IMG/VR virus record: IMGVR_UViG_3300030100_000755 | Span: 19,987 to 83,986 of that record | From: a virus | Taxonomy: Duplodnaviria > Caudoviricetes | Reading direction: 5' to 3' (one strand) | Length of the DNA stretch: 64,000 nt | Shown here: piece by piece, positions 2,948 through 57,008 of the stretch | Position numbering within the stretch: the first letter of the stretch is position 1 | Layout: every line of letters begins with the position of its first letter | Program-made: the position numbers and the translations under genes | The notes under the pieces: model-generated | Told to the model about the DNA's origin: nothing | Seen by the model: only the letters and a program-made list of their open reading frames with translations | Databases searched by the model: none

Positions 2948-4829
2948 TTACCTCCCAATCGTGTTCTTCTTGTTTTACATCATAATCACTGTCATCAATA
3001 ATGTCATTACTTTCACCAAATAAGATTGGGTCTGGCTCATCATTCTCAATATAAGGATTATTAGTTGGGTAAAAATGCGTAGTGTCATTATCATAGCGAA
3101 CCCAACCAGCTTCACCAGTAAGACCTGTCCTACGACACTTAACCAATAACAGCCTAGTAGAGTTACGCTTGTTAGGATCATCACTAAGCTTATCACGACT
3201 AAATAAAACAGTGTTAAATGCAATCTGGTTAATACTACTGCTACCTAACAATGAATACTCACTGATGTTATGGGGGTCATCAGAATCAGGTTTACGCATG
3301 TGACTAACAAGAATAACAGCGGTATCAGTCTTTTTAGCAAATTTCAACACTCTATCCATGAAATCAATGATTGCGCTATTATCAGACGAGTTAACACCAG
3401 CTTGTAACGGGTCAAAAATTATTACATCCGCGCATTCAACCTCAGCAAGATAGTGAAACTTATCAAATATATCTTCTGTACTACACGCACCCTGATGGTC
3501 TACGAACGCAAACTGATCTTTACTTGCTAATGAGTTCATATAACGATTGCGTAATTGCGTCATGTTTAATTCAGACCTATCAGCAAGACGTAAGTTAACT
3601 CTCATATCAAGACTCATTAAATCACGAACAATTTCACGCTTAGTACCCTCTAAGTAGAACGCACCTACTTTAAATTTAGTGTTGTCAATTAAATGGTAAA
3701 CAATATTGTTGATAATACTTGTCTTACCAATTGATGTATATGCACCCAACACAGTGATTTCACCTTTTTCAATACCACCACCTAATTTATCATTCAATAA
3801 TGACATTGAAGCTGGAAAAGGTATTTTAGTGTTTAAGTCCTCTTTCTCAAAATCCTCCCACATTTCAGATAAATGTAGGACATCGACAGGGCTATAACGT
3901 TCAGCCTTGAAATATGCTGATTTAATTTGCTCCCACTCACCTCGCTTTGAATGCTCACAAGCATCTTTACGCTTATACTTCGCAATCTTTGCTTGCCCTG
4001 CTTTCATTATCTTAGCAATCTTTTCAGCACCTTCACGACCAGCATCGTCTTGGTCATACATAATGATTACACTTTCAAATGAACTCAACCATTCATAATT
4101 AGCACGAATTTGAGCAACAGCACTTTCACCACACTGTGTTGATACGACAGGGGTAATGAACTTGCTAACTTTCATCACCTTTTTACCAAGTTCTGAATTA
4201 AATACTTTCTCAGTATTAAGGGCAGTGAATACAGCACGAGCATCTGCTTGACCAGAACACAGAACAACAAACTTACCGCCTTTCTCAAACTTATTCTGAC
4301 CAAACAACTTCGTGGAAGCACGAACATCACCCACTGAATAGAATGGAGCACCTTGTACTTTCTTACCTTCATTTTTGGCTTTCTTTACTGCGTCATTACG
4401 AACATGATAACCTACTAATTGGTCTTTCTGATTATAAGCAGGGCAATATTCTTTAACTAGTTCTTTGTTAGCACCATCACCCTTAACGTCAGAACGAACA
4501 CCATAAAACTCATTAACTAGGGCTGGTATTTTACGCTCAGGCCAACCGTGAATCTTCTTATTACCAATAAATTCTAATTGCTCTTGAATTTCTTCTGTTA
4601 ACACGTAACCTTTTTTATTGCTAGAAGATGATACAGCCTCAACCAACACTTCATTAGCGCCATCAGTAACACCAAGCTCTTTCAATTCTTTAGGTTTCAT
4701 ATAACCACAATTTGACCAACAATTACCATCAACATGATTCTCTTTCTGATACAACGCCAAAGGATCTGAACCACCACATTTAGGACAAGCGAAATGACCA
4801 ATCAATTCACCTTGTTCTAGTTCTTCCAT
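2937..4829 (-). CDS. Primase-helicase (T7 gp4-like)
   Basis: N-terminal Zn finger CPKC...CWSNC, TOPRIM (YDQDDAG), DnaB-type helicase Walker A (GAYTSIGKT), IIFDPL, VSHMRK, KCRRTG. Confidence 0.93.
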   Translation of the reverse strand: MEELEQGELIGHFACPKCGGSDPLALYQKENHVDGNCWSNCGYMKPKELKELGVTDGANEVLVEAVSSSSNKKGYVLTEEIQEQLEFIGNKKIHGWPERKIPALVNEFYGVRSDVKGDGANKELVKEYCPAYNQKDQLVGYHVRNDAVKKAKNEGKKVQGAPFYSVGDVRASTKLFGQNKFEKGGKFVVLCSGQADARAVFTALNTEKVFNSELGKKVMKVSKFITPVVSTQCGESAVAQIRANYEWLSSFESVIIMYDQDDAGREGAEKIAKIMKAGQAKIAKYKRKDACEHSKRGEWEQIKSAYFKAERYSPVDVLHLSEMWEDFEKEDLNTKIPFPASMSLLNDKLGGGIEKGEITVLGAYTSIGKTSIINNIVYHLIDNTKFKVGAFYLEGTKREIVRDLMSLDMRVNLRLADRSELNMTQLRNRYMNSLASKDQFAFVDHQGACSTEDIFDKFHYLAEVECADVIIFDPLQAGVNSSDNSAIIDFMDRVLKFAKKTDTAVILVSHMRKPDSDDPHNISEYSLLGSSSINQIAFNTVLFSRDKLSDDPNKRNSTRLLLVKCRRTGLTGEAGWVRYDNDTTHFYPTNNPYIENDEPDPILFGESNDIIDDSDYDVKQEEHDWEVIDE

Positions 4830-39452: not shown

Positions 39453-39553
39453 GTTTTGGGAAGGTGGTTACGGGTCTGAACAGGCTTAGCTAAAAACGTA
39501 GGCTACGATAGCACACCAAACTGTTACCGCTGCTTAACCATTTTCACCAAAGC
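39453..39553 (+). ncRNA. Structured RNA 1 with tRNA-like closing stem and 3' ACCA
   Basis: GAAGGTGGTTA pairs with TAACCATTTTC, followed by ACCA; outer flanks shared with the elements at 54425 and 56050. Confidence 0.55.
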
Positions 39554-39632: not shown

Positions 39633-39655
39633 GCCCACCTCGCGTGGGCTTTTTT
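39633..39655 (+). terminator. Intrinsic terminator closing the non-coding locus
   Basis: GCCCAC-CTCGC-GTGGGC followed by T6. Confidence 0.8.
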
Positions 39656-39714
39656 ATATGCGTTCAATAATTATAAAAGTTCATTATAATTGTACATAAA
39701 ATATAAATGAACAG

Positions 39715-44334: not shown

Positions 44335-44916
44335 ATGGAAACTATTAAATACCTAAATGAATTTGGTCTTGATAAACTACAACAAGAATTGGGTATTAAG
44401 GTTAGTCAAAACGAAAATTATCCTGATTTATACGTACTTAATTATGACCAAATAAAAAGTCCTAAATATCATCCAATAGTGATTGAGTGTCGCAGTCTTG
44501 TTGTAAGACTTGAGGGTGATGAATATTTCGTAGAAAGTCGTAGTTTTGATAGATTCTTTAACTATGGTGAGATTGAAGGTCAACCAGACGATGTTGAAAA
44601 TATGGTTGCTTACCAGAAGATTGATGGCAGTTTAGTATCAGTATGGAAAAATGAAAAATATGGCTGGCTATATCGCACACGTTCTATGATTATGCCTTCT
44701 GTTGAGGTATGTATTAATGGTTATAAATTATCTTGGAAAGAGTTAATTGAGAGTGTTATCAATTTTGATAAGTTAGAGGAAATTCCTATAATTGACCACA
44801 CTTATATTTTCGAGGTAGTTAGTCCAGAAAATAGAGTAGTAACCCCTTACTCTCAGAGAGAAGCTTTTTTATTATCCATAAGGAGTAATATTGATGGAAA
44901 CTACAGAAAAAGATAA
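44335..44916 (+). CDS. RNA ligase 1 (T4 Rnl1-like), N-terminal part
   Basis: ECRSLV, SFDRFFNYGE, motif I QKIDGS, YIFEVVSPENRVV; stops before motifs IV and V. Confidence 0.85.
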   Translation: METIKYLNEFGLDKLQQELGIKVSQNENYPDLYVLNYDQIKSPKYHPIVIECRSLVVRLEGDEYFVESRSFDRFFNYGEIEGQPDDVENMVAYQKIDGSLVSVWKNEKYGWLYRTRSMIMPSVEVCINGYKLSWKELIESVINFDKLEEIPIIDHTYIFEVVSPENRVVTPYSQREAFLLSIRSNIDGNYRKR

Positions 44917-53841: not shown

Positions 53842-54363
53842 ATGAAAATTGAAAAAGGTAATTACATTCGCGCAGCAGAGTTTAGCAATGAAGAAATTGA
53901 CGTATTTATTGGTCTCACTGGTATTGATGTAAATGATTCAGATAATGATAGCGAGGCGTTTGAAGGTTGGGAAAGTTATGGTCTTGATACTGATGGTGAT
54001 TTAGCTAATTGGAATAATCCCGAATACTTTGGTAATTGTTGCACTCATCACAAAGACATTACGCAAGAATTTCGTTATTATATTGACACGTTGAGTGTTG
54101 AAAAGAAAGATGATGATGAGTGGACACATACTTATAGCGATTGTGGGGTGAGGAAGGATTGTATTTTAATTCATTATAAACCTGATATAAATGGTCAGGT
54201 ATTAGTCCTGAATAGATACGGTGAATATGTATTGACTGGTACTGTTAAATTAAAACCCATCAAGCAGACGATAAAACCAAGTGCAGCATGGTCGCTAGTA
54301 TCTGGGCAAGTATTGTCTATACACGAATTTAATGAGAAATATGACGTAGTTGGAAAAGACTAA
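53842..54363 (+). CDS. Hypothetical protein
   Basis: GAGGAAG SD; acidic ORF. Confidence 0.65.
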   Translation: MKIEKGNYIRAAEFSNEEIDVFIGLTGIDVNDSDNDSEAFEGWESYGLDTDGDLANWNNPEYFGNCCTHHKDITQEFRYYIDTLSVEKKDDDEWTHTYSDCGVRKDCILIHYKPDINGQVLVLNRYGEYVLTGTVKLKPIKQTIKPSAAWSLVSGQVLSIHEFNEKYDVVGKD

Positions 54364-54424
54364 CTGGTCAGAGTTGTTAAGTGATTGGTTAGGGTGTAAG
54401 GTTTAAACGTCCCTAGCAATAGGG

Positions 54425-54516
54425 CGTTTTGGGAATGACTCTATAAGTGGAGTGGATGGGTTAACTAACTAGTCAATGGTTGCCCGGCGGACATACCGTG
54501 AGTCATTCCCAAAGCG
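54425..54516 (+). ncRNA. Structured RNA 2 (17-bp closing stem, cloverleaf-like interior)
   Basis: CGTTTTGGGAATGACTC pairs with GAGTCATTCCCAAAGCG; internal GGGTTAAC/GTTGCCC and GCGG/CCGT hairpins. Confidence 0.55.
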
Positions 54517-54534
54517 AACAAAGGAGATTGAAAA

Positions 54535-54936
54535 GTGAGTAAAAGTTTAAAACAAATGGCATACGATACGATAGAGGCGCATCAAGAAACCATAGCTGAT
54601 CTACGCAATCAATTAGCAAAGGCTAATGAGCGTGTGAGGGAGTGCCATAAAGAGCTTGTTAACAGGCATGATCAAATACAAGAACTGAGACAAGAAAATG
54701 GAGAATACGCAATTCTTATTGCGAATTTAGTTAGACGTGCCGACGTTAAAACCGATTTACTGCAAAACCCTAAATTTGAAAAAGCTAGCGTACAGTTAAA
54801 CAAATTCGCCATAGAAAAGAGTATTGAGGGCGTTCAGAGAGTTTTAGATTGTGGAGAATTAAACCTTTCTCAAGGAGACATTGACACGATTAGGCTAATT
54901 CGAGAACAACTACGCAAGGAGCAATCCAATGACTAA
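54535..54936 (+). CDS. Mosaic coiled-coil hypothetical protein
   Basis: Contains LAKANERV, NKFAIEK and EQLRKEQ blocks shared with neighbouring genes. Confidence 0.65.
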   Translation: MSKSLKQMAYDTIEAHQETIADLRNQLAKANERVRECHKELVNRHDQIQELRQENGEYAILIANLVRRADVKTDLLQNPKFEKASVQLNKFAIEKSIEGVQRVLDCGELNLSQGDIDTIRLIREQLRKEQSND

Positions 54937-55204
54937 AAAACACACAGGCTATTACGCATACATGCCGGACTCGCATGAAGAGGATGCTAGTTTAGAGATG
55001 GTTGATTTTGAGGAATTCGCAAAAACTACGGTTAGCCAAGAAAGCCAGCAAGAAACAAAAGAGTCACTGGAAGATGTAATGAAAGCGCTGGAGGTAGTAC
55101 AAGCGTTTGCAATTCGTCATTGGAAGCCTTGCCTTAGAGACTGCTGCGGAGATGCTATTGATGATGTTGAGGAAATGTTAGAACAACTACGCAAGGAGCA
55201 ATAG
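54929..55204 (+). CDS. Hypothetical protein
   Basis: Ends EQLRKEQ. Confidence 0.6.
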   Translation: MTKKHTGYYAYMPDSHEEDASLEMVDFEEFAKTTVSQESQQETKESLEDVMKALEVVQAFAIRHWKPCLRDCCGDAIDDVEEMLEQLRKEQ

Positions 55205-55370
55205 TAAGAATGACCAACGTCACGCCGCATTCAAATGTGGTGACGAATATAATTACATTGTTGAAGCCATGGATACTGAGATAACCGACCGTGCGTTTCA
55301 GCAATACGTTTACGAGCAACGCTACCTAACAAAAACCGTTGCAACAAAATGGAGCATTGAAGAACAATGA
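55201..55370 (+). pseudogene. 56-codon ORF missing its start codon (AT-AGT instead of ATG AGT)
   Basis: Restoring one G gives an ATGA-coupled MSKNDQRHAAFKCG...EEQ* that abuts the next ATG. Confidence 0.5.
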
Positions 55371-55828
55371 ACAAACAACAGTTACTAGAACTCGTGGTTA
55401 GACCGACACTTGCAGAAATCCCGAACGGTCCATCTGGTGAAACGGCGATTATGATGATTATAGCGCATGAGTCACGACGTGGTGAATTCCTTAAACAATG
55501 GCCAAAAGGTCCAGCGTGGGGATTGATTCAAATGGAAGTAGCGACACACGACGACACGTGGTTACACGGCGACTCTATATGGAAGAATGCGGTTAAGTTG
55601 GGGATTATTGATATTAAATCTAACTCTAACAGAGTACACCCACACCACTGTCGTCTAGCGTGGGATTTACGTTACAACGTATTTATGGCACGTCAACGAC
55701 TGTTCATGAAACCTGGCGCTTTACCCACCGACTTAGCACGACTGTCACGCTACCTTAAAAAGCACTGGAACAGTGTCGGTGGCGCAGCGTCTGAAACGTC
55801 GTATATGGACGATTACCTCAAATGGTAG
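55367..55828 (+). CDS. Lysozyme-like / lytic transglycosylase-like protein
   Basis: IIAHES (candidate catalytic Glu), GPAWGLIQME..THDD, YLKKHWN. Confidence 0.6.
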   Translation: MNKQQLLELVVRPTLAEIPNGPSGETAIMMIIAHESRRGEFLKQWPKGPAWGLIQMEVATHDDTWLHGDSIWKNAVKLGIIDIKSNSNRVHPHHCRLAWDLRYNVFMARQRLFMKPGALPTDLARLSRYLKKHWNSVGGAASETSYMDDYLKW

Positions 55829-56040
55829 GGTTAACGTTAAGCGAGTATTTCGCCAACAAACCCACGCTGTCACTGAAACAACGACGCGTTAAAGTTTGTT
55901 GGGTGTTGAATAACGCTAAACTTTACCCGTCCAATAAGACCGTAGCACACCGCACAGGTCTAACAGTAAACCAAGTTGAATATGTGTTCCGCACTTTCCC
56001 CGAAGTGCGAGAAATGAGAAGGAGACTGAAACGTTCCTAG
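55822..56040 (+). CDS. Small basic HTH-like protein
   Basis: SNKTVAHRTGLTVNQVEYV. Confidence 0.5.
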   Translation: MVGLTLSEYFANKPTLSLKQRRVKVCWVLNNAKLYPSNKTVAHRTGLTVNQVEYVFRTFPEVREMRRRLKRS

Positions 56041-56056
56041 TAATAGGGCGTTTTGG

Positions 56057-56173
56057 GAATGGCTGTAGCTCAGTGTGGATGTTCTGCATATCAGCAGGGC
56101 TAGCGCAACCACTAGGAAGGAGCGCATGTTGCGGCATGAGGTCGCAGGTTCAAATCCTGCCAGCCATTCACCA
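56057..56173 (+). ncRNA. tRNA-derived RNA 3 with expanded D arm, defective anticodon loop and 3' ACCA
   Basis: TAGCTCAG A-box, GAGC, AGGTC, T arm GCAGG-TTCAAAT-CCTGC, 9-bp acceptor stem, ACCA. Confidence 0.75.
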
Positions 56174-56196
56174 AAGCGAACAAAGGAGATTAAGAA

Positions 56197-56430
56197 ATGT
56201 GTGAATTAGAAAGAGATATAAGCGAATTGGATAGCCTACGCACACAACTAGCAAAGGCTAATGAGCGTGCAAGGGAGTTGGAAAATTCTAATGCAAGAAT
56301 GCTGCATGAGGTCGCCAACCAGTATGATGGAAATGATTCAACAGAGTGGTCTATTGGTGCAAATCATGTTTTCAGGCTATTTGCTAAATGGATTAGCAAG
56401 AACGAACAACTACGAAAGGAGCAAGAGTGA
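56197..56430 (+). CDS. Mosaic hypothetical protein
   Basis: LAKANER and EQLRKEQE blocks. Confidence 0.6.
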   Translation: MCELERDISELDSLRTQLAKANERARELENSNARMLHEVANQYDGNDSTEWSIGANHVFRLFAKWISKNEQLRKEQE

Positions 56431-57008
56431 TGTTAAAACCAGAGTCGCTTAAAGCCAAACCGGCAGATAACTACGAAGATTTAAAGCGTCAATTTTTTGC
56501 ACTTAAAAAACTCTGCAAATTAAAGTTTAATCAATGCTCTGCTTACTCACGCAAGCTGGCAGAATACGACCGTGAATCTTTGATTGCGAGAAACGAGGCT
56601 CTAGACAGTGAGCGAGAAATGAATGCACAGTTAACTGCTGAGTTGGAAAAGGCTAATGAGCGTGTGAAGGAGTTGGAGAAAGATCTTAAAGAGAGCGAAG
56701 ATGACCTAGATGCTGCGGAACAGCAATTATCAAGCTACGAAAATGCACTAGAAGAAGTTCAAGCTGTTTTTGTTGATAGTGATGCTTGCCCACTTTTTGA
56801 ACCGTTCAATCCAAGAAACTTATCTGCTTGGCTAAACAAATTCGCCATAGAGAAGAAGATTGAATCCATAGATGAATTAAAAGGTAGCTGCAACATTTAT
56901 AAGGCGTTCCCTACCAACAAACATATTGCCAGAGAGTGCGTAACAGTGGAAGAAATAGACGCTTATCACTGGTCGCTCAAAGAACAACTACGAAAGGAGC
57001 AAGAGTGA
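56427..57008 (+). CDS. Mosaic coiled-coil hypothetical protein
   Basis: KANERV, LNKFAIEK and EQLRKEQE blocks. Confidence 0.65.
   Translation: MMLKPESLKAKPADNYEDLKRQFFALKKLCKLKFNQCSAYSRKLAEYDRESLIARNEALDSEREMNAQLTAELEKANERVKELEKDLKESEDDLDAAEQQLSSYENALEEVQAVFVDSDACPLFEPFNPRNLSAWLNKFAIEKKIESIDELKGSCNIYKAFPTNKHIARECVTVEEIDAYHWSLKEQLRKEQE

What the first reader, a model, noticed from the sequence alone, without database searches (positions are those of the whole stretch)
56057..56173. tRNA with a 9-bp acceptor stem, a hugely expanded D arm and a broken anticodon loop
Seen: T8A9-GCTC-AG, GAGC, variable loop AGGTC and a perfect T arm (GCAGG-TTCAAAT-CCTGC). The acceptor stem GAATGGCTG/CAGCCATTC is followed by ACCA. 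The D loop carries about 40 extra nt that form their own helices (GTTCTGC/GCAGGGC and GTGG/CCAC). The anticodon arm is CATG-TTGCGG-CATG, a 6-nt loop instead of the canonical arm. Inference: it probably cannot decode but keeps the elbow and CCA end, as tRNA-mimic RNAs do. An anticodon-defective decoy resistant to anticodon nucleases is one possibility.
Basis: partly seen in the sequence, partly recalled or inferred. Interest (0 to 1): 0.75.

Follow-up and report, generated by a model that had tools for sequence, protein, structure and literature searches.

The report
Anticodon-less tRNA in swappable RNA slot
A marine phage carries a real but non-decoding tRNA look-alike whose "acceptor stem" is the constant clamp of a small RNA cassette, and sister phages fill the same clamp with at least six unrelated RNA inserts, so this is one cargo of a modular, undescribed phage RNA slot rather than a broken tRNA gene.

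Summary
Window 56057-56173 (+) matches the Rfam tRNA model at 45.5 bits (cut-off 29). It has a perfect T arm, a D stem, variable loop AGGTC, a 48-nt D loop and a 14-nt anticodon stub (5 bp plus a UGCG loop). Default ARAGORN does not call it.

The context changes the reading. The 9-bp "acceptor stem" and the ACCA belong to a conserved frame. This frame consists of a GNRA-capped hairpin with U4, a 10-12 bp clamp, a cargo, and an AAAGCGAAC-AAAGGAG leader followed by a start codon. It recurs twice more in this phage and in related marine phage contigs.

At the orthologous slot, relatives carry unrelated cargos (types C, D, E, G) or no cassette. None carries a normal tRNA. The clamp covaries, and some pairs are G.U, which are valid only in + strand RNA. 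ACCA is not conserved across the family.

The tRNA-like copy is identical in the five contigs I read, out of 13 listed from several assemblies. It also occurs in metatranscriptome contigs joined to the downstream ORF.

Best reading: a tRNA-derived, non-decoding cargo in a recombination-shuffled leader RNA slot, probably a handle for tRNA-processing enzymes (RNase P) or a scaffold. An anticodon-nuclease decoy is unlikely. This scan has noted similar constant-stem, variable-cargo cassettes in other phages.

The parts
56029..56054 (+). Hairpin with GNRA loop (GTAA, 56040-43) followed by UUUU. It holds the stop codon of the upstream 72-aa gene (TAG, 56038-40). It is terminator-like and forms the first part of the conserved frame.
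   Evidence: Sequence. It repeats at 54405-54430 (family D4). The loop is GTAA, GCAA, GAAA or GCGA in relatives, and the stem shows a compensatory change in L015. The simple terminator scan does not list it because it has only 4 U.
56055..56065 (+). 5' strand of the clamp (GGGAATGGCTG). Bases 56057-65 also serve as the 5' strand of the 9-bp 'acceptor stem'.
   Evidence: The clamp covaries across the family.
56066..56123 (+). U8-A9, the D stem (56068-71 with 56120-23) and a 48-nt D loop. The loop contains hairpin 56081-56100 and helix 56075-78 with 56109-12.
   Evidence: Rfam alignment with a 44-nt insertion; MFE fold.
56124..56138 (+). G26 and the anticodon-arm stub: CAUGU-UGCG-GCAUG, 5 bp with a 4-nt loop and no anticodon.
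   Evidence: Rfam alignment shows 4 nt in place of the 7-nt loop; folds.
56139..56160 (+). Variable loop AGGTC and a canonical T arm, GCAGG-TTCAAAT-CCTGC.
   Evidence: The same T-arm sequence occurs in many ordinary phage tRNAs.
56161..56173 (+). 3' strand of the clamp (CAGCCATTC) plus ACCA.
   Evidence: ACCA is replaced by other letters in L147, L149, L152 and type B.
56174..56199 (+). Conserved leader AAGCGAACAAAGGAGATT with the Shine-Dalgarno sequence, then the ATG (56197) of a 77-aa gene.
   Evidence: family D5. RNA-library contigs run from 56056/56060 through this leader to 56275.
54405..54537 (+). Second cassette of the same frame (type B cargo): hairpin plus U4, clamp GGGAATGACTC (54431-41) with GAGTCATTCCC (54500-10), the same leader, then GTG at 54535.
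   Evidence: Two clamp pairs differ from type A by compensatory changes. No Rfam family matches.
39458..39549 (+). Third cassette (type F cargo): clamp bases GAAGGTGGTTA (39460-70, preceded by GG at 39458-59) pair with TAACCATTTTC (39535-45), 11 bp with two G.U pairs, then ACCAAAGCG. It lies in an ORF-free gap.
Evidence: Sequence read. No Rfam family matches.

Best explanation
The element is a tRNA-derived RNA module that cannot act in translation. It is one of at least seven interchangeable cargos (A to G) that sit inside a constant 10-12 bp clamp helix. The clamp lies in the leader of small early-type genes, between a GNRA-capped hairpin with U4 and a conserved AAAGCGAAC-AAAGGAG ribosome-binding leader. 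In this copy the clamp doubles as the acceptor stem.

Shown:
- The tRNA core and T arm are intact, the anticodon loop is replaced by a 4-nt UGCG loop, and about 40 nt are inserted in the D loop.
- The frame is conserved with RNA-type covariation.
- Cargos are exchanged independently of both neighbouring genes, by recombination in a region full of short junction repeats.
- The element is found in RNA-library contigs that continue into the downstream ORF.

Inferred mechanism: the module is transcribed as part of the message and folds into a tRNA-like L shape. The host's tRNA-processing machinery, most probably RNase P, recognises it and cuts at the 5' edge of the clamp. That cut would leave the upstream message ending in its hairpin. 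The downstream message would begin with a compact structured cap, or a stable small RNA would be released that displays the D-loop insert on a tRNA scaffold. The other cargos would serve the same slot function by other structures.
For: tRNA likeness:
- RF00005 scores 45.5 bits against a cut-off of 29.
- Canonical tertiary positions can be read directly from the sequence.

Frame:
- Exact repeats of both flanks occur at 54405-54543.
- A third clamp lies at 39458-39549.
- The same frame occurs in relatives L015, L034, L035, L052, L057/L114, L066, L147-L152 and L180-L187.

Cargo swapping at the orthologous slot after the 72-aa gene:
- Type A is in the window.
- Type E is in L052 and L148, C in L147, D in L149/L150/L152, and G in L180-L187.
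- There is no cassette in L153-L157.
- Cargos are not alignable to each other.
- The same cargo occurs with different neighbours (C in L015, L034, L147; E in L052, L057, L148).

RNA-level selection:
- Clamp pairs change in a compensatory way (G-C to A-U, A-U to G-C).
- Some clamp pairs are G.U, valid only on the + strand.
- A hairpin inside type D covaries (C-G to U-A).
- The hairpin loops are always GNRA.
- Cargo GC is 46-55% against 36.5% for the genome.

Presence in RNA: metatranscriptome contigs of runs X5 and X7 start at 56056 and 56060 and run to 56275, while the preceding contig ends at 56014.

Reality of the sequence: it is identical in the five independent contigs I read, out of 13 listed.

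Precedents for tRNA-like processing handles:
- Plant mitochondrial t-elements (PMC1920247).
- RNase P cleavage of the tRNA-like YrlA (PMC4201824).
Against: - No cleavage site, 5' end chemistry or small RNA has been observed.
- The RNA evidence comes from assembled contigs of one sample, from libraries that may contain DNA. Contig ends are only a weak hint.
- A 9-bp stem plus a 5-bp T stem gives 14 stacked pairs, not the 12 that RNase P normally measures (general knowledge).
- ACCA is not conserved in the family, and its CC may be paired with the leading GG.
- Cargos B to G show no T arm, so a common RNase P mechanism for the slot is not evident.
- Most cargos are no more stable than shuffled sequence.
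- Only one sequence variant of type A exists, so neither the D-loop insert nor the stub can be tested by covariation.
- G18 and G19 may be sequestered in the GTGG/CCAC helix.
Confidence: 0.45

Rival explanations
1. Trans-acting tRNA mimic. The RNA is released with a free CCA end and titrates or blocks a host factor that binds tRNA, for example an anticodon nuclease or another tRNA-targeting defence, while being immune to cleavage itself.
For: - The tRNA core, T arm and an ACCA after the stem are intact.
- The anticodon loop looks deliberately closed by a stable-looking UGCG loop rather than randomly decayed.
- The phage encodes a T4 Rnl1-type RNA ligase, the enzyme class used to repair nuclease-cut tRNA (role from general knowledge).
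- The phage has no tRNA gene of its own.
Against: - Anticodon nucleases recognise the anticodon loop (general knowledge), which is absent.
- ACCA belongs to the frame, is not conserved, and is followed directly by the mRNA leader, with which it is contiguous in RNA contigs.
- Sister phages put non-tRNA cargos or nothing in the same slot.
- No CCA-adding enzyme or Ro60 partner is encoded.
Confidence: 0.15
2. Neutral relic. A tRNA gene or gene fragment was captured in a recombination hot spot, lost its anticodon and gained an insertion. It persists only because the flanking frame is useful, and the cargo itself does nothing.
For: - The region is a mosaic of short junction repeats, with many alternative joints in metagenome contigs.
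- The cassette is dispensable in relatives, and a variant lacking the type B cassette exists (joint 54399 to 54509).
- Cargos are mostly not unusually stable.
- Only one population carries type A.
Against: - Every tertiary-contact position of the tRNA core is still canonical, and both changes are tidy. One is an insertion at the solvent-exposed part of the D loop, and the other is a loop closed to 4 nt.
- The cargo abuts the clamp exactly as a tRNA body abuts its acceptor stem.
- A second variant in run X6 keeps the T arm and the 3' clamp with a different 5' part (loose end at 56142).
- Type D cargo shows compensatory changes, so at least some cargos are under selection.
Confidence: 0.2
3. DNA-level shuffling cassette of the PeSL kind. 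What is selected is the conserved terminator/promoter-like flank as a site of homologous exchange and transcription control, and the clamp and cargo are by-products.
For: - Flanks are 94-100% identical between phages whose neighbouring genes are 84-88% identical.
- Cargo, upstream gene and downstream gene assort independently.
- A 76-nt block upstream of some cassettes contains TTGTTA-17-TAAGGT (read). The tool's consensus scan did not list it.
- PeSLs are composite terminator/promoter motifs that mediate such swapping in T4-like phages (PMC4122927, PMC2839356).
Against: - Clamp covariation includes G.U pairs valid on one strand only, and the GNRA loops point to selection on the RNA.
- No promoter is predicted next to the type A copy.
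- PeSLs as described do not enclose a variable structured insert.
Confidence: 0.1

Closest known systems
tRNA (Rfam RF00005), especially phage-encoded tRNA genes
   Same: It has an acceptor-type stem, U8-A9, a D stem, G26, a 5-nt variable loop and a canonical T arm. It scores above the family's gathering cut-off.
   Different: - There is no 7-nt anticodon loop and no anticodon.
- The D loop is 48 nt.
- The closing stem is 9 bp and is shared with non-tRNA cassettes.
- There is no separate gene: it lies in an mRNA leader.
- Default ARAGORN rejects it.
t-elements of plant mitochondrial transcripts, and similar tRNA-like processing signals such as mascRNA of MALAT1
   Same: It is a tRNA-like structure without decoding capacity, embedded next to a protein-coding message. 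In t-elements, RNase P and RNase Z use such structures to make mRNA ends (PMC1920247).
   Different: This is a bacteriophage, not an organelle or nucleus. Cleavage has not been shown here. In relatives the element sits in a constant clamp that also accepts non-tRNA cargos.
YrlA / bacterial and phage Y RNAs
   Same: These are non-coding RNAs with a tRNA-like D arm, T arm and acceptor-type stem and no normal anticodon loop. Some are RNase P substrates, and they are found in phages (PMC4201824).
   Different: - In YrlA the 5' and 3' ends form the Ro60-binding stem, not the acceptor stem.
- YrlA is encoded next to Ro60, and no TROVE protein is encoded here.
- No Rfam Y RNA match was found.
PeSL promoter/terminator cassettes of T4-like phages
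   Same: They are short conserved intergenic sequences with a terminator hairpin that flank small variable genes and act as exchange points (PMC4122927). The frame here behaves the same way.
   Different: PeSLs are not described as enclosing a variable structured RNA within a covarying clamp. No promoter has been established here.
Constant-stem, variable-cargo RNA cassettes noted earlier in this scan in other phages (unpublished AI notes)
   Same: They share a constant closing helix, unrelated swapped interiors, a phage origin and a link to tRNA. One note describes phage small RNAs that copy the top half of a tRNA around a variable insert.
   Different: - Those have 17-20 bp stems and lie inside tRNA gene arrays.
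- This one has a 10-12 bp clamp.
- This phage has no tRNA genes.
- This cassette sits in the leaders of protein genes.
- The notes are unchecked, and no sequence similarity to them was found.

Membership tests
tRNA (functional adaptor) | Anticodon arm with a 5-bp stem and a 7-nt loop carrying U33 and an anticodon | tested here: not met
   The arm is 14 nt, with 4 nt where the model expects 7. It can be drawn as 5 bp/4 nt or 4 bp/6 nt.
tRNA (functional adaptor) | Acceptor stem, D stem, T arm with the GTTCRA loop, and conserved tertiary positions | tested here: met
   RF00005 scores 45.5 bits. U8, A9, A14, G15-C48, G26-A44, C13-G22-G46, G53-C61 and T54-A58 can be read.
tRNA (functional adaptor) | D loop of about 7-11 nt; called by a standard tRNA finder | tested here: not met
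   The D loop is 48 nt. ARAGORN in default mode finds 0 genes and gives only a poor intron model.
tRNA (functional adaptor) | Relatives carry a homologous tRNA gene at the same place | tested here: not met
   Orthologous slots hold cargos C, D, E or G, or nothing. No tRNA was found in the loci of relatives.
tRNA-like processing signal (t-element type) | tRNA-like acceptor/T-arm structure adjacent to an mRNA, on the transcribed strand | tested here: met
   It lies 24 nt upstream of the ATG, on the + strand like all neighbouring genes. RNA-library contigs join it to the ORF.
tRNA-like processing signal (t-element type) | Mapped RNA ends at the edges of the structure, made by RNase P or RNase Z | tested here: inconclusive
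   RNA contigs start at 56056 (X5) and 56060 (X7), and the preceding contig ends at 56014. This comes from one sample, from contigs rather than reads.
YrlA / Y RNA | Encoded next to a Ro60 (TROVE) gene; matches the Rfam Y RNA models | tested here: not met
   PF05731 is absent from the 84-kb record while the control genomes score. There is no Y RNA hit in the Rfam scans.
tmRNA | tRNA-like domain without a D stem, plus a tag reading frame | tested here: not met
   ARAGORN's tmRNA search finds nothing, and a D stem is present.
PeSL-type shuffling cassette | Conserved intergenic terminator hairpin at the borders of swapped small genes | tested here: met
   plus the alternative joints.
PeSL-type shuffling cassette | Early promoter joined to the stem-loop | tested here: inconclusive
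   The consensus scan finds no promoter at either cassette. A weak TTGTTA-17-TAAGGT lies upstream of the type B copy only.
Known self-cleaving ribozymes or riboswitches (for the sister cargos) | Match to an Rfam covariance model | tested here: not met
   Permissive scans of cargos B, C, D, E and F gave only chance-level hits.

The most novel reading that the evidence does not exclude
These phages maintain a dedicated 'RNA cargo slot': a GNRA hairpin, a constant clamp and a leader. Unrelated small structured RNAs are exchanged between genomes like gene cassettes in this slot. The anticodon-less tRNA is a natural tRNA scaffold or RNase P handle that lets the host tRNA-processing machinery excise and stabilise a phage small RNA, whose working part is the 40-nt D-loop insert. 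Together with the similar cassettes seen elsewhere in this scan, this would define a widespread, undescribed class of modular phage small RNAs.
Probability: 0.3. Interest if true: 0.8.

Novelty: new variant of a known kind. Interest (0 to 1): 0.65.

Why it matters
If the reading holds, a phage with no tRNA genes keeps a purpose-built tRNA body without an anticodon, purely for its shape. That would be a bacterial-virus counterpart of organellar t-elements, and of the laboratory 'tRNA scaffold' used to stabilise recombinant RNAs.

More broadly, the constant clamp with freely exchanged cargos shows that structured RNAs, like protein genes, are shuffled as modules in phage hyperplastic regions. 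It also supplies a concrete set of seven cargos and a defined slot. That makes the function directly testable by swapping cargos, mapping RNA ends and probing RNase P dependence.

Tried and rejected
- **Class II tRNA with an intron.** ARAGORN's intron mode gives tRNA-Ser(act) with a 21-nt intron, but its D and anticodon stems are poor. Rejected.
- **More type A copies for covariation.** Two viral-contig pattern scans found none. A T-arm pattern returned only ordinary phage tRNAs. blastn against 50,697 phage records matched only the T arm of unrelated tRNA-Pro and tRNA-Gly genes. The isotype of origin therefore cannot be named.
- **Megablast of the neighbourhood against isolated phages.** It gave only a 37-nt hit in an Alteromonas phage.
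- **Known RNA families for the sister cargos.** None matched.
- **Homology between cargos.** None was found beyond the shared TGTAG next to the clamp in A, D and E.
- **Antisense targets of the element in the phage genome.** Only four 10-mers were found, which is the chance level.
- **Small ORF inside the element.** There is GGAAGGAG plus ATG at 56126, giving 28 codons. The spacing is only 3 nt and there is no conservation. Rejected as coding.
- **Stability of the cargos against shuffles.** It was not significant except for type E, so thermodynamics alone does not show structure.
- **RNA cover.** RNA runs gave no cover over the type B cassette (54372-54947) or over 56015-56055. These holes prove nothing.
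- **Metagenome scan with the 18-nt leader pattern.** It returned mostly chance matches, and only L052, L057, L066 and L075 were true members.

Full report
**1. The observation**

The window is the right-hand 64 kb of an 84-kb IMG/VR virus record with 36.5% GC.

- A 9-bp stem GAATGGCTG/CAGCCATTC is followed by ACCA.
- Then come U8-A9, D stem GCTC/GAGC, a 48-nt D loop with two internal helices, a 14-nt anticodon stub, variable loop AGGTC and a perfect T arm.

Rfam's tRNA model matches 56059-56168 at 45.5 bits (cut-off 29; E = 1.7e-6 in the whole window). The alignment has a 44-nt insertion in the D loop and 4 nt in place of the anticodon loop. ARAGORN finds no tRNA or tmRNA in the whole 84-kb record in default mode, and its intron mode gives only a weak tRNA-Ser model.

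Reading the canonical numbering onto the sequence, the positions that build the tRNA core are all standard:

- U8, A9, A14
- G15 with C48
- G26 with A44
- C13-G22 with G46
- G53-C61
- T54, T55, C56, A58

The two departures are tidy rather than ragged. The extra 40 nt lie after G18-G19, in the part of the D loop that varies in length in normal tRNAs. The anticodon arm is closed to CAUGU-UGCG-GCAUG. So the RNA cannot decode but could still fold as an L.

**2. The stem and ACCA belong to a repeated frame**

A search of the phage's own record with the element returned two extra short matches. These led to a second cassette at 54405-54537. Both flanks recur there exactly:

- AAACGT.CCTAG.AATAGGGCGTTTTGGGAATG on the left
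- CCAAAGCGAACAAAGGAGATT plus a start codon on the right

The stem there is GGGAATGACTC/GAGTCATTCCC. It differs from the tRNA-like copy by two compensatory pair changes. The 58-nt interior is unrelated and is not tRNA-like.

I read it at 39458-39549. Its clamp bases GAAGGTGGTTA (39460-70, after GG at 39458-59) pair with TAACCATTTTC over 11 bp, including two G.U pairs, and are followed again by ACCAAAGCG.

**3. Relatives**

I anchored searches on neighbouring proteins, on the flank patterns and on exact-protein look-ups. These recovered the same frame in related uncultured marine phage contigs.

The slot directly after the homologue of the 72-aa gene (window 55822-56040) is the orthologous place. 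It holds:

| Cargo | Where |
|---|---|
| A (tRNA-like) | this phage only |
| C | L147 |
| D | L149, L150, L152 |
| E | L052, L148 |
| G | L180-L187 |
| no cassette (the next gene overlaps the 70-aa gene) | L153-L157, the more distant relatives |

The same cargo also occurs with other neighbours (C in L015 and L034, D in L035, E in L057). The same downstream gene occurs with different cargos. The cargos cannot be aligned with each other and match no Rfam family. No relative has an ordinary tRNA here.

**4. Selection acts on RNA**

Four lines of evidence point to selection at the RNA level.

- Across the family the clamp keeps pairing through changes on both sides. Examples are GAATGG/CCATTC becoming AGATGG/CCATCT in L149, a further G-C to A-U change in L152, and positions 6, 7 and 9 in types B, C and E. 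Some pairs are G.U, possible only in + strand RNA (L057, L034, type F).
- One hairpin inside cargo D changes C-G to U-A.
- The hairpin before every cassette has a GNRA loop (GTAA, GCAA, GAAA, GCGA), and one stem pair changes in a compensatory way in L015.
- Cargo GC is 46-55% in a 36.5% GC genome.

Against this, most cargos are not more stable than shuffled sequence.

The ACCA is not a family constant. It reads ACTA in L147, CCCAAA in type B (where the stem simply extends to 11 bp) and CTACAA in L149 and L152. The C-to-T change in L147 would keep a G.U pair with the leading GG. This suggests the CC is paired rather than a free CCA end.

**5. The region is a recombination mosaic**

The genes downstream of the cassettes are paralogues. 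They share a LAKANERVRELE block and the C-terminal EQLRKEQE, whose DNA also supplies the next gene's ribosome-binding site.

Metagenome contigs laid on 54300-56450 show many alternative joints between these short repeats. One form replaces the whole type B cassette with 5 letters. Other contigs share only 56142-56191 (T arm, 3' clamp, leader), preceded by unrelated sequence.

Flanks are 94-100% identical between phages whose adjacent genes are 84-88% identical. This is the behaviour described for PeSL cassettes of T4-like phages (PMC4122927, PMC2839356), with an added clamp and cargo.

**6. Is it real and expressed?**

The tRNA-like cassette is identical in the five contigs I read from separate assemblies, out of 13 contigs listed as carrying the adjacent gene. 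They include Tara Oceans samples and other runs.

Two metatranscriptome runs from one sample, in a study other than the probable source, contain contigs that begin at 56056 and 56060 and run through the element and leader into the ORF to 56275. The preceding contig ends at 56014. These libraries may contain DNA, and contig ends are weak evidence. I count this as presence in RNA libraries and a faint hint of a 5' end at the clamp.

**7. Mechanism**

What is shown: this is a non-decoding, tRNA-derived cargo in a conserved, covarying, recombination-shuffled leader RNA slot.

What is inferred: the intact top half of the tRNA makes it a substrate for host tRNA-processing enzymes, RNase P first. Cleavage at the 5' edge of the clamp would leave the upstream message with its GNRA hairpin as a 3' end. 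The downstream message would start with a compact structure, or a stable scaffolded small RNA would be released.

Precedents are plant mitochondrial t-elements (PMC1920247) and RNase P cleavage of the tRNA-like YrlA (PMC4201824).

Weak points of this reading:

- The helix stack is 14 bp.
- ACCA is not conserved.
- The other cargos have no T arm.

**8. Rivals**

- **Trans-acting mimic or decoy.** This remains possible, since the phage has an Rnl1-type ligase. But anticodon nucleases need the anticodon loop, no Ro60 or CCA-adding enzyme is encoded, and the slot takes non-tRNA cargos.
- **Neutral relic.** This fits the dispensability and the single population. It fits poorly with the fully preserved core and the exact abutment of cargo and clamp.
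- **Purely DNA-level shuffling cassette.** This does not explain the strand-specific G.U pairs or the GNRA loops.

**9. Novelty**

tRNA-like RNAs and tRNA-like processing signals are known. What I did not find described is an anticodon-less tRNA whose acceptor stem is the constant clamp of a cassette family with exchangeable unrelated cargos, in a phage without tRNA genes (paper searches).

This scan has noted comparable constant-stem, variable-cargo cassettes in other phages. Those have longer stems and lie inside tRNA arrays. The notes are unchecked and share no sequence with this family.

Noticed in passing
window 54405-54537 and 39458-39549: Two further cassettes use the same frame (hairpin with U4, clamp, ACCAAAGCG). 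Their cargos (types B and F) are unrelated and match no Rfam family. Type F lies in a 450-bp ORF-free gap that ends in a strong terminator near 39633-39656.
   Followed up: partly
window 54535-57008: A family of small paralogous proteins (133, 91, 77 and 193 aa) shares a LAKANERVRELE block and the C-terminus EQLRKEQE. The DNA of that C-terminus recurs four times and supplies the Shine-Dalgarno sequence and start of the next gene. Metagenome contigs show many alternative joints between these repeats.
   Followed up: partly
L149, L150, L152 (about 1735-1845 in L149): Cargo D folds as a four-way junction: the clamp plus three hairpins, cloverleaf-like, with a long central arm. It has a compensatory change in the first hairpin. 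It is an unclassified structured RNA in its own right.
   Followed up: partly
window 55990-56009: A 7-bp hairpin (CGCACTT/AAGTGCG) lies inside the 72-aa ORF. The upstream RNA-library contigs of both runs end 5 nt after it (56014).
   Followed up: no
window about 44485-44916 (G000:C1:64471-64902): There is a T4 Rnl1-type RNA ligase match (PF09511, 41.8 bits) covering only profile positions 1-156, with a TAA inside.
   Followed up: partly
L164 (NCBI GCA_002723335.1, PBNU01000003.1, 128.5 kb): The same phage region lies inside a 128.5-kb contig of a deposited MAG, longer than the 84-kb virus record. Either the phage genome is larger than the record or the contig was binned with a bacterium. Homologues of the small proteins carry Alteromonas names, which hints at the host.
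   Followed up: no
L128 and L140 (about 4190-4320 on the - strand of L128): Unrelated phage contigs hold a tRNA-like gene with the same T arm but a long extra arm between the anticodon arm and the T arm. It may be a long-variable-arm or otherwise unusual tRNA.
   Followed up: no
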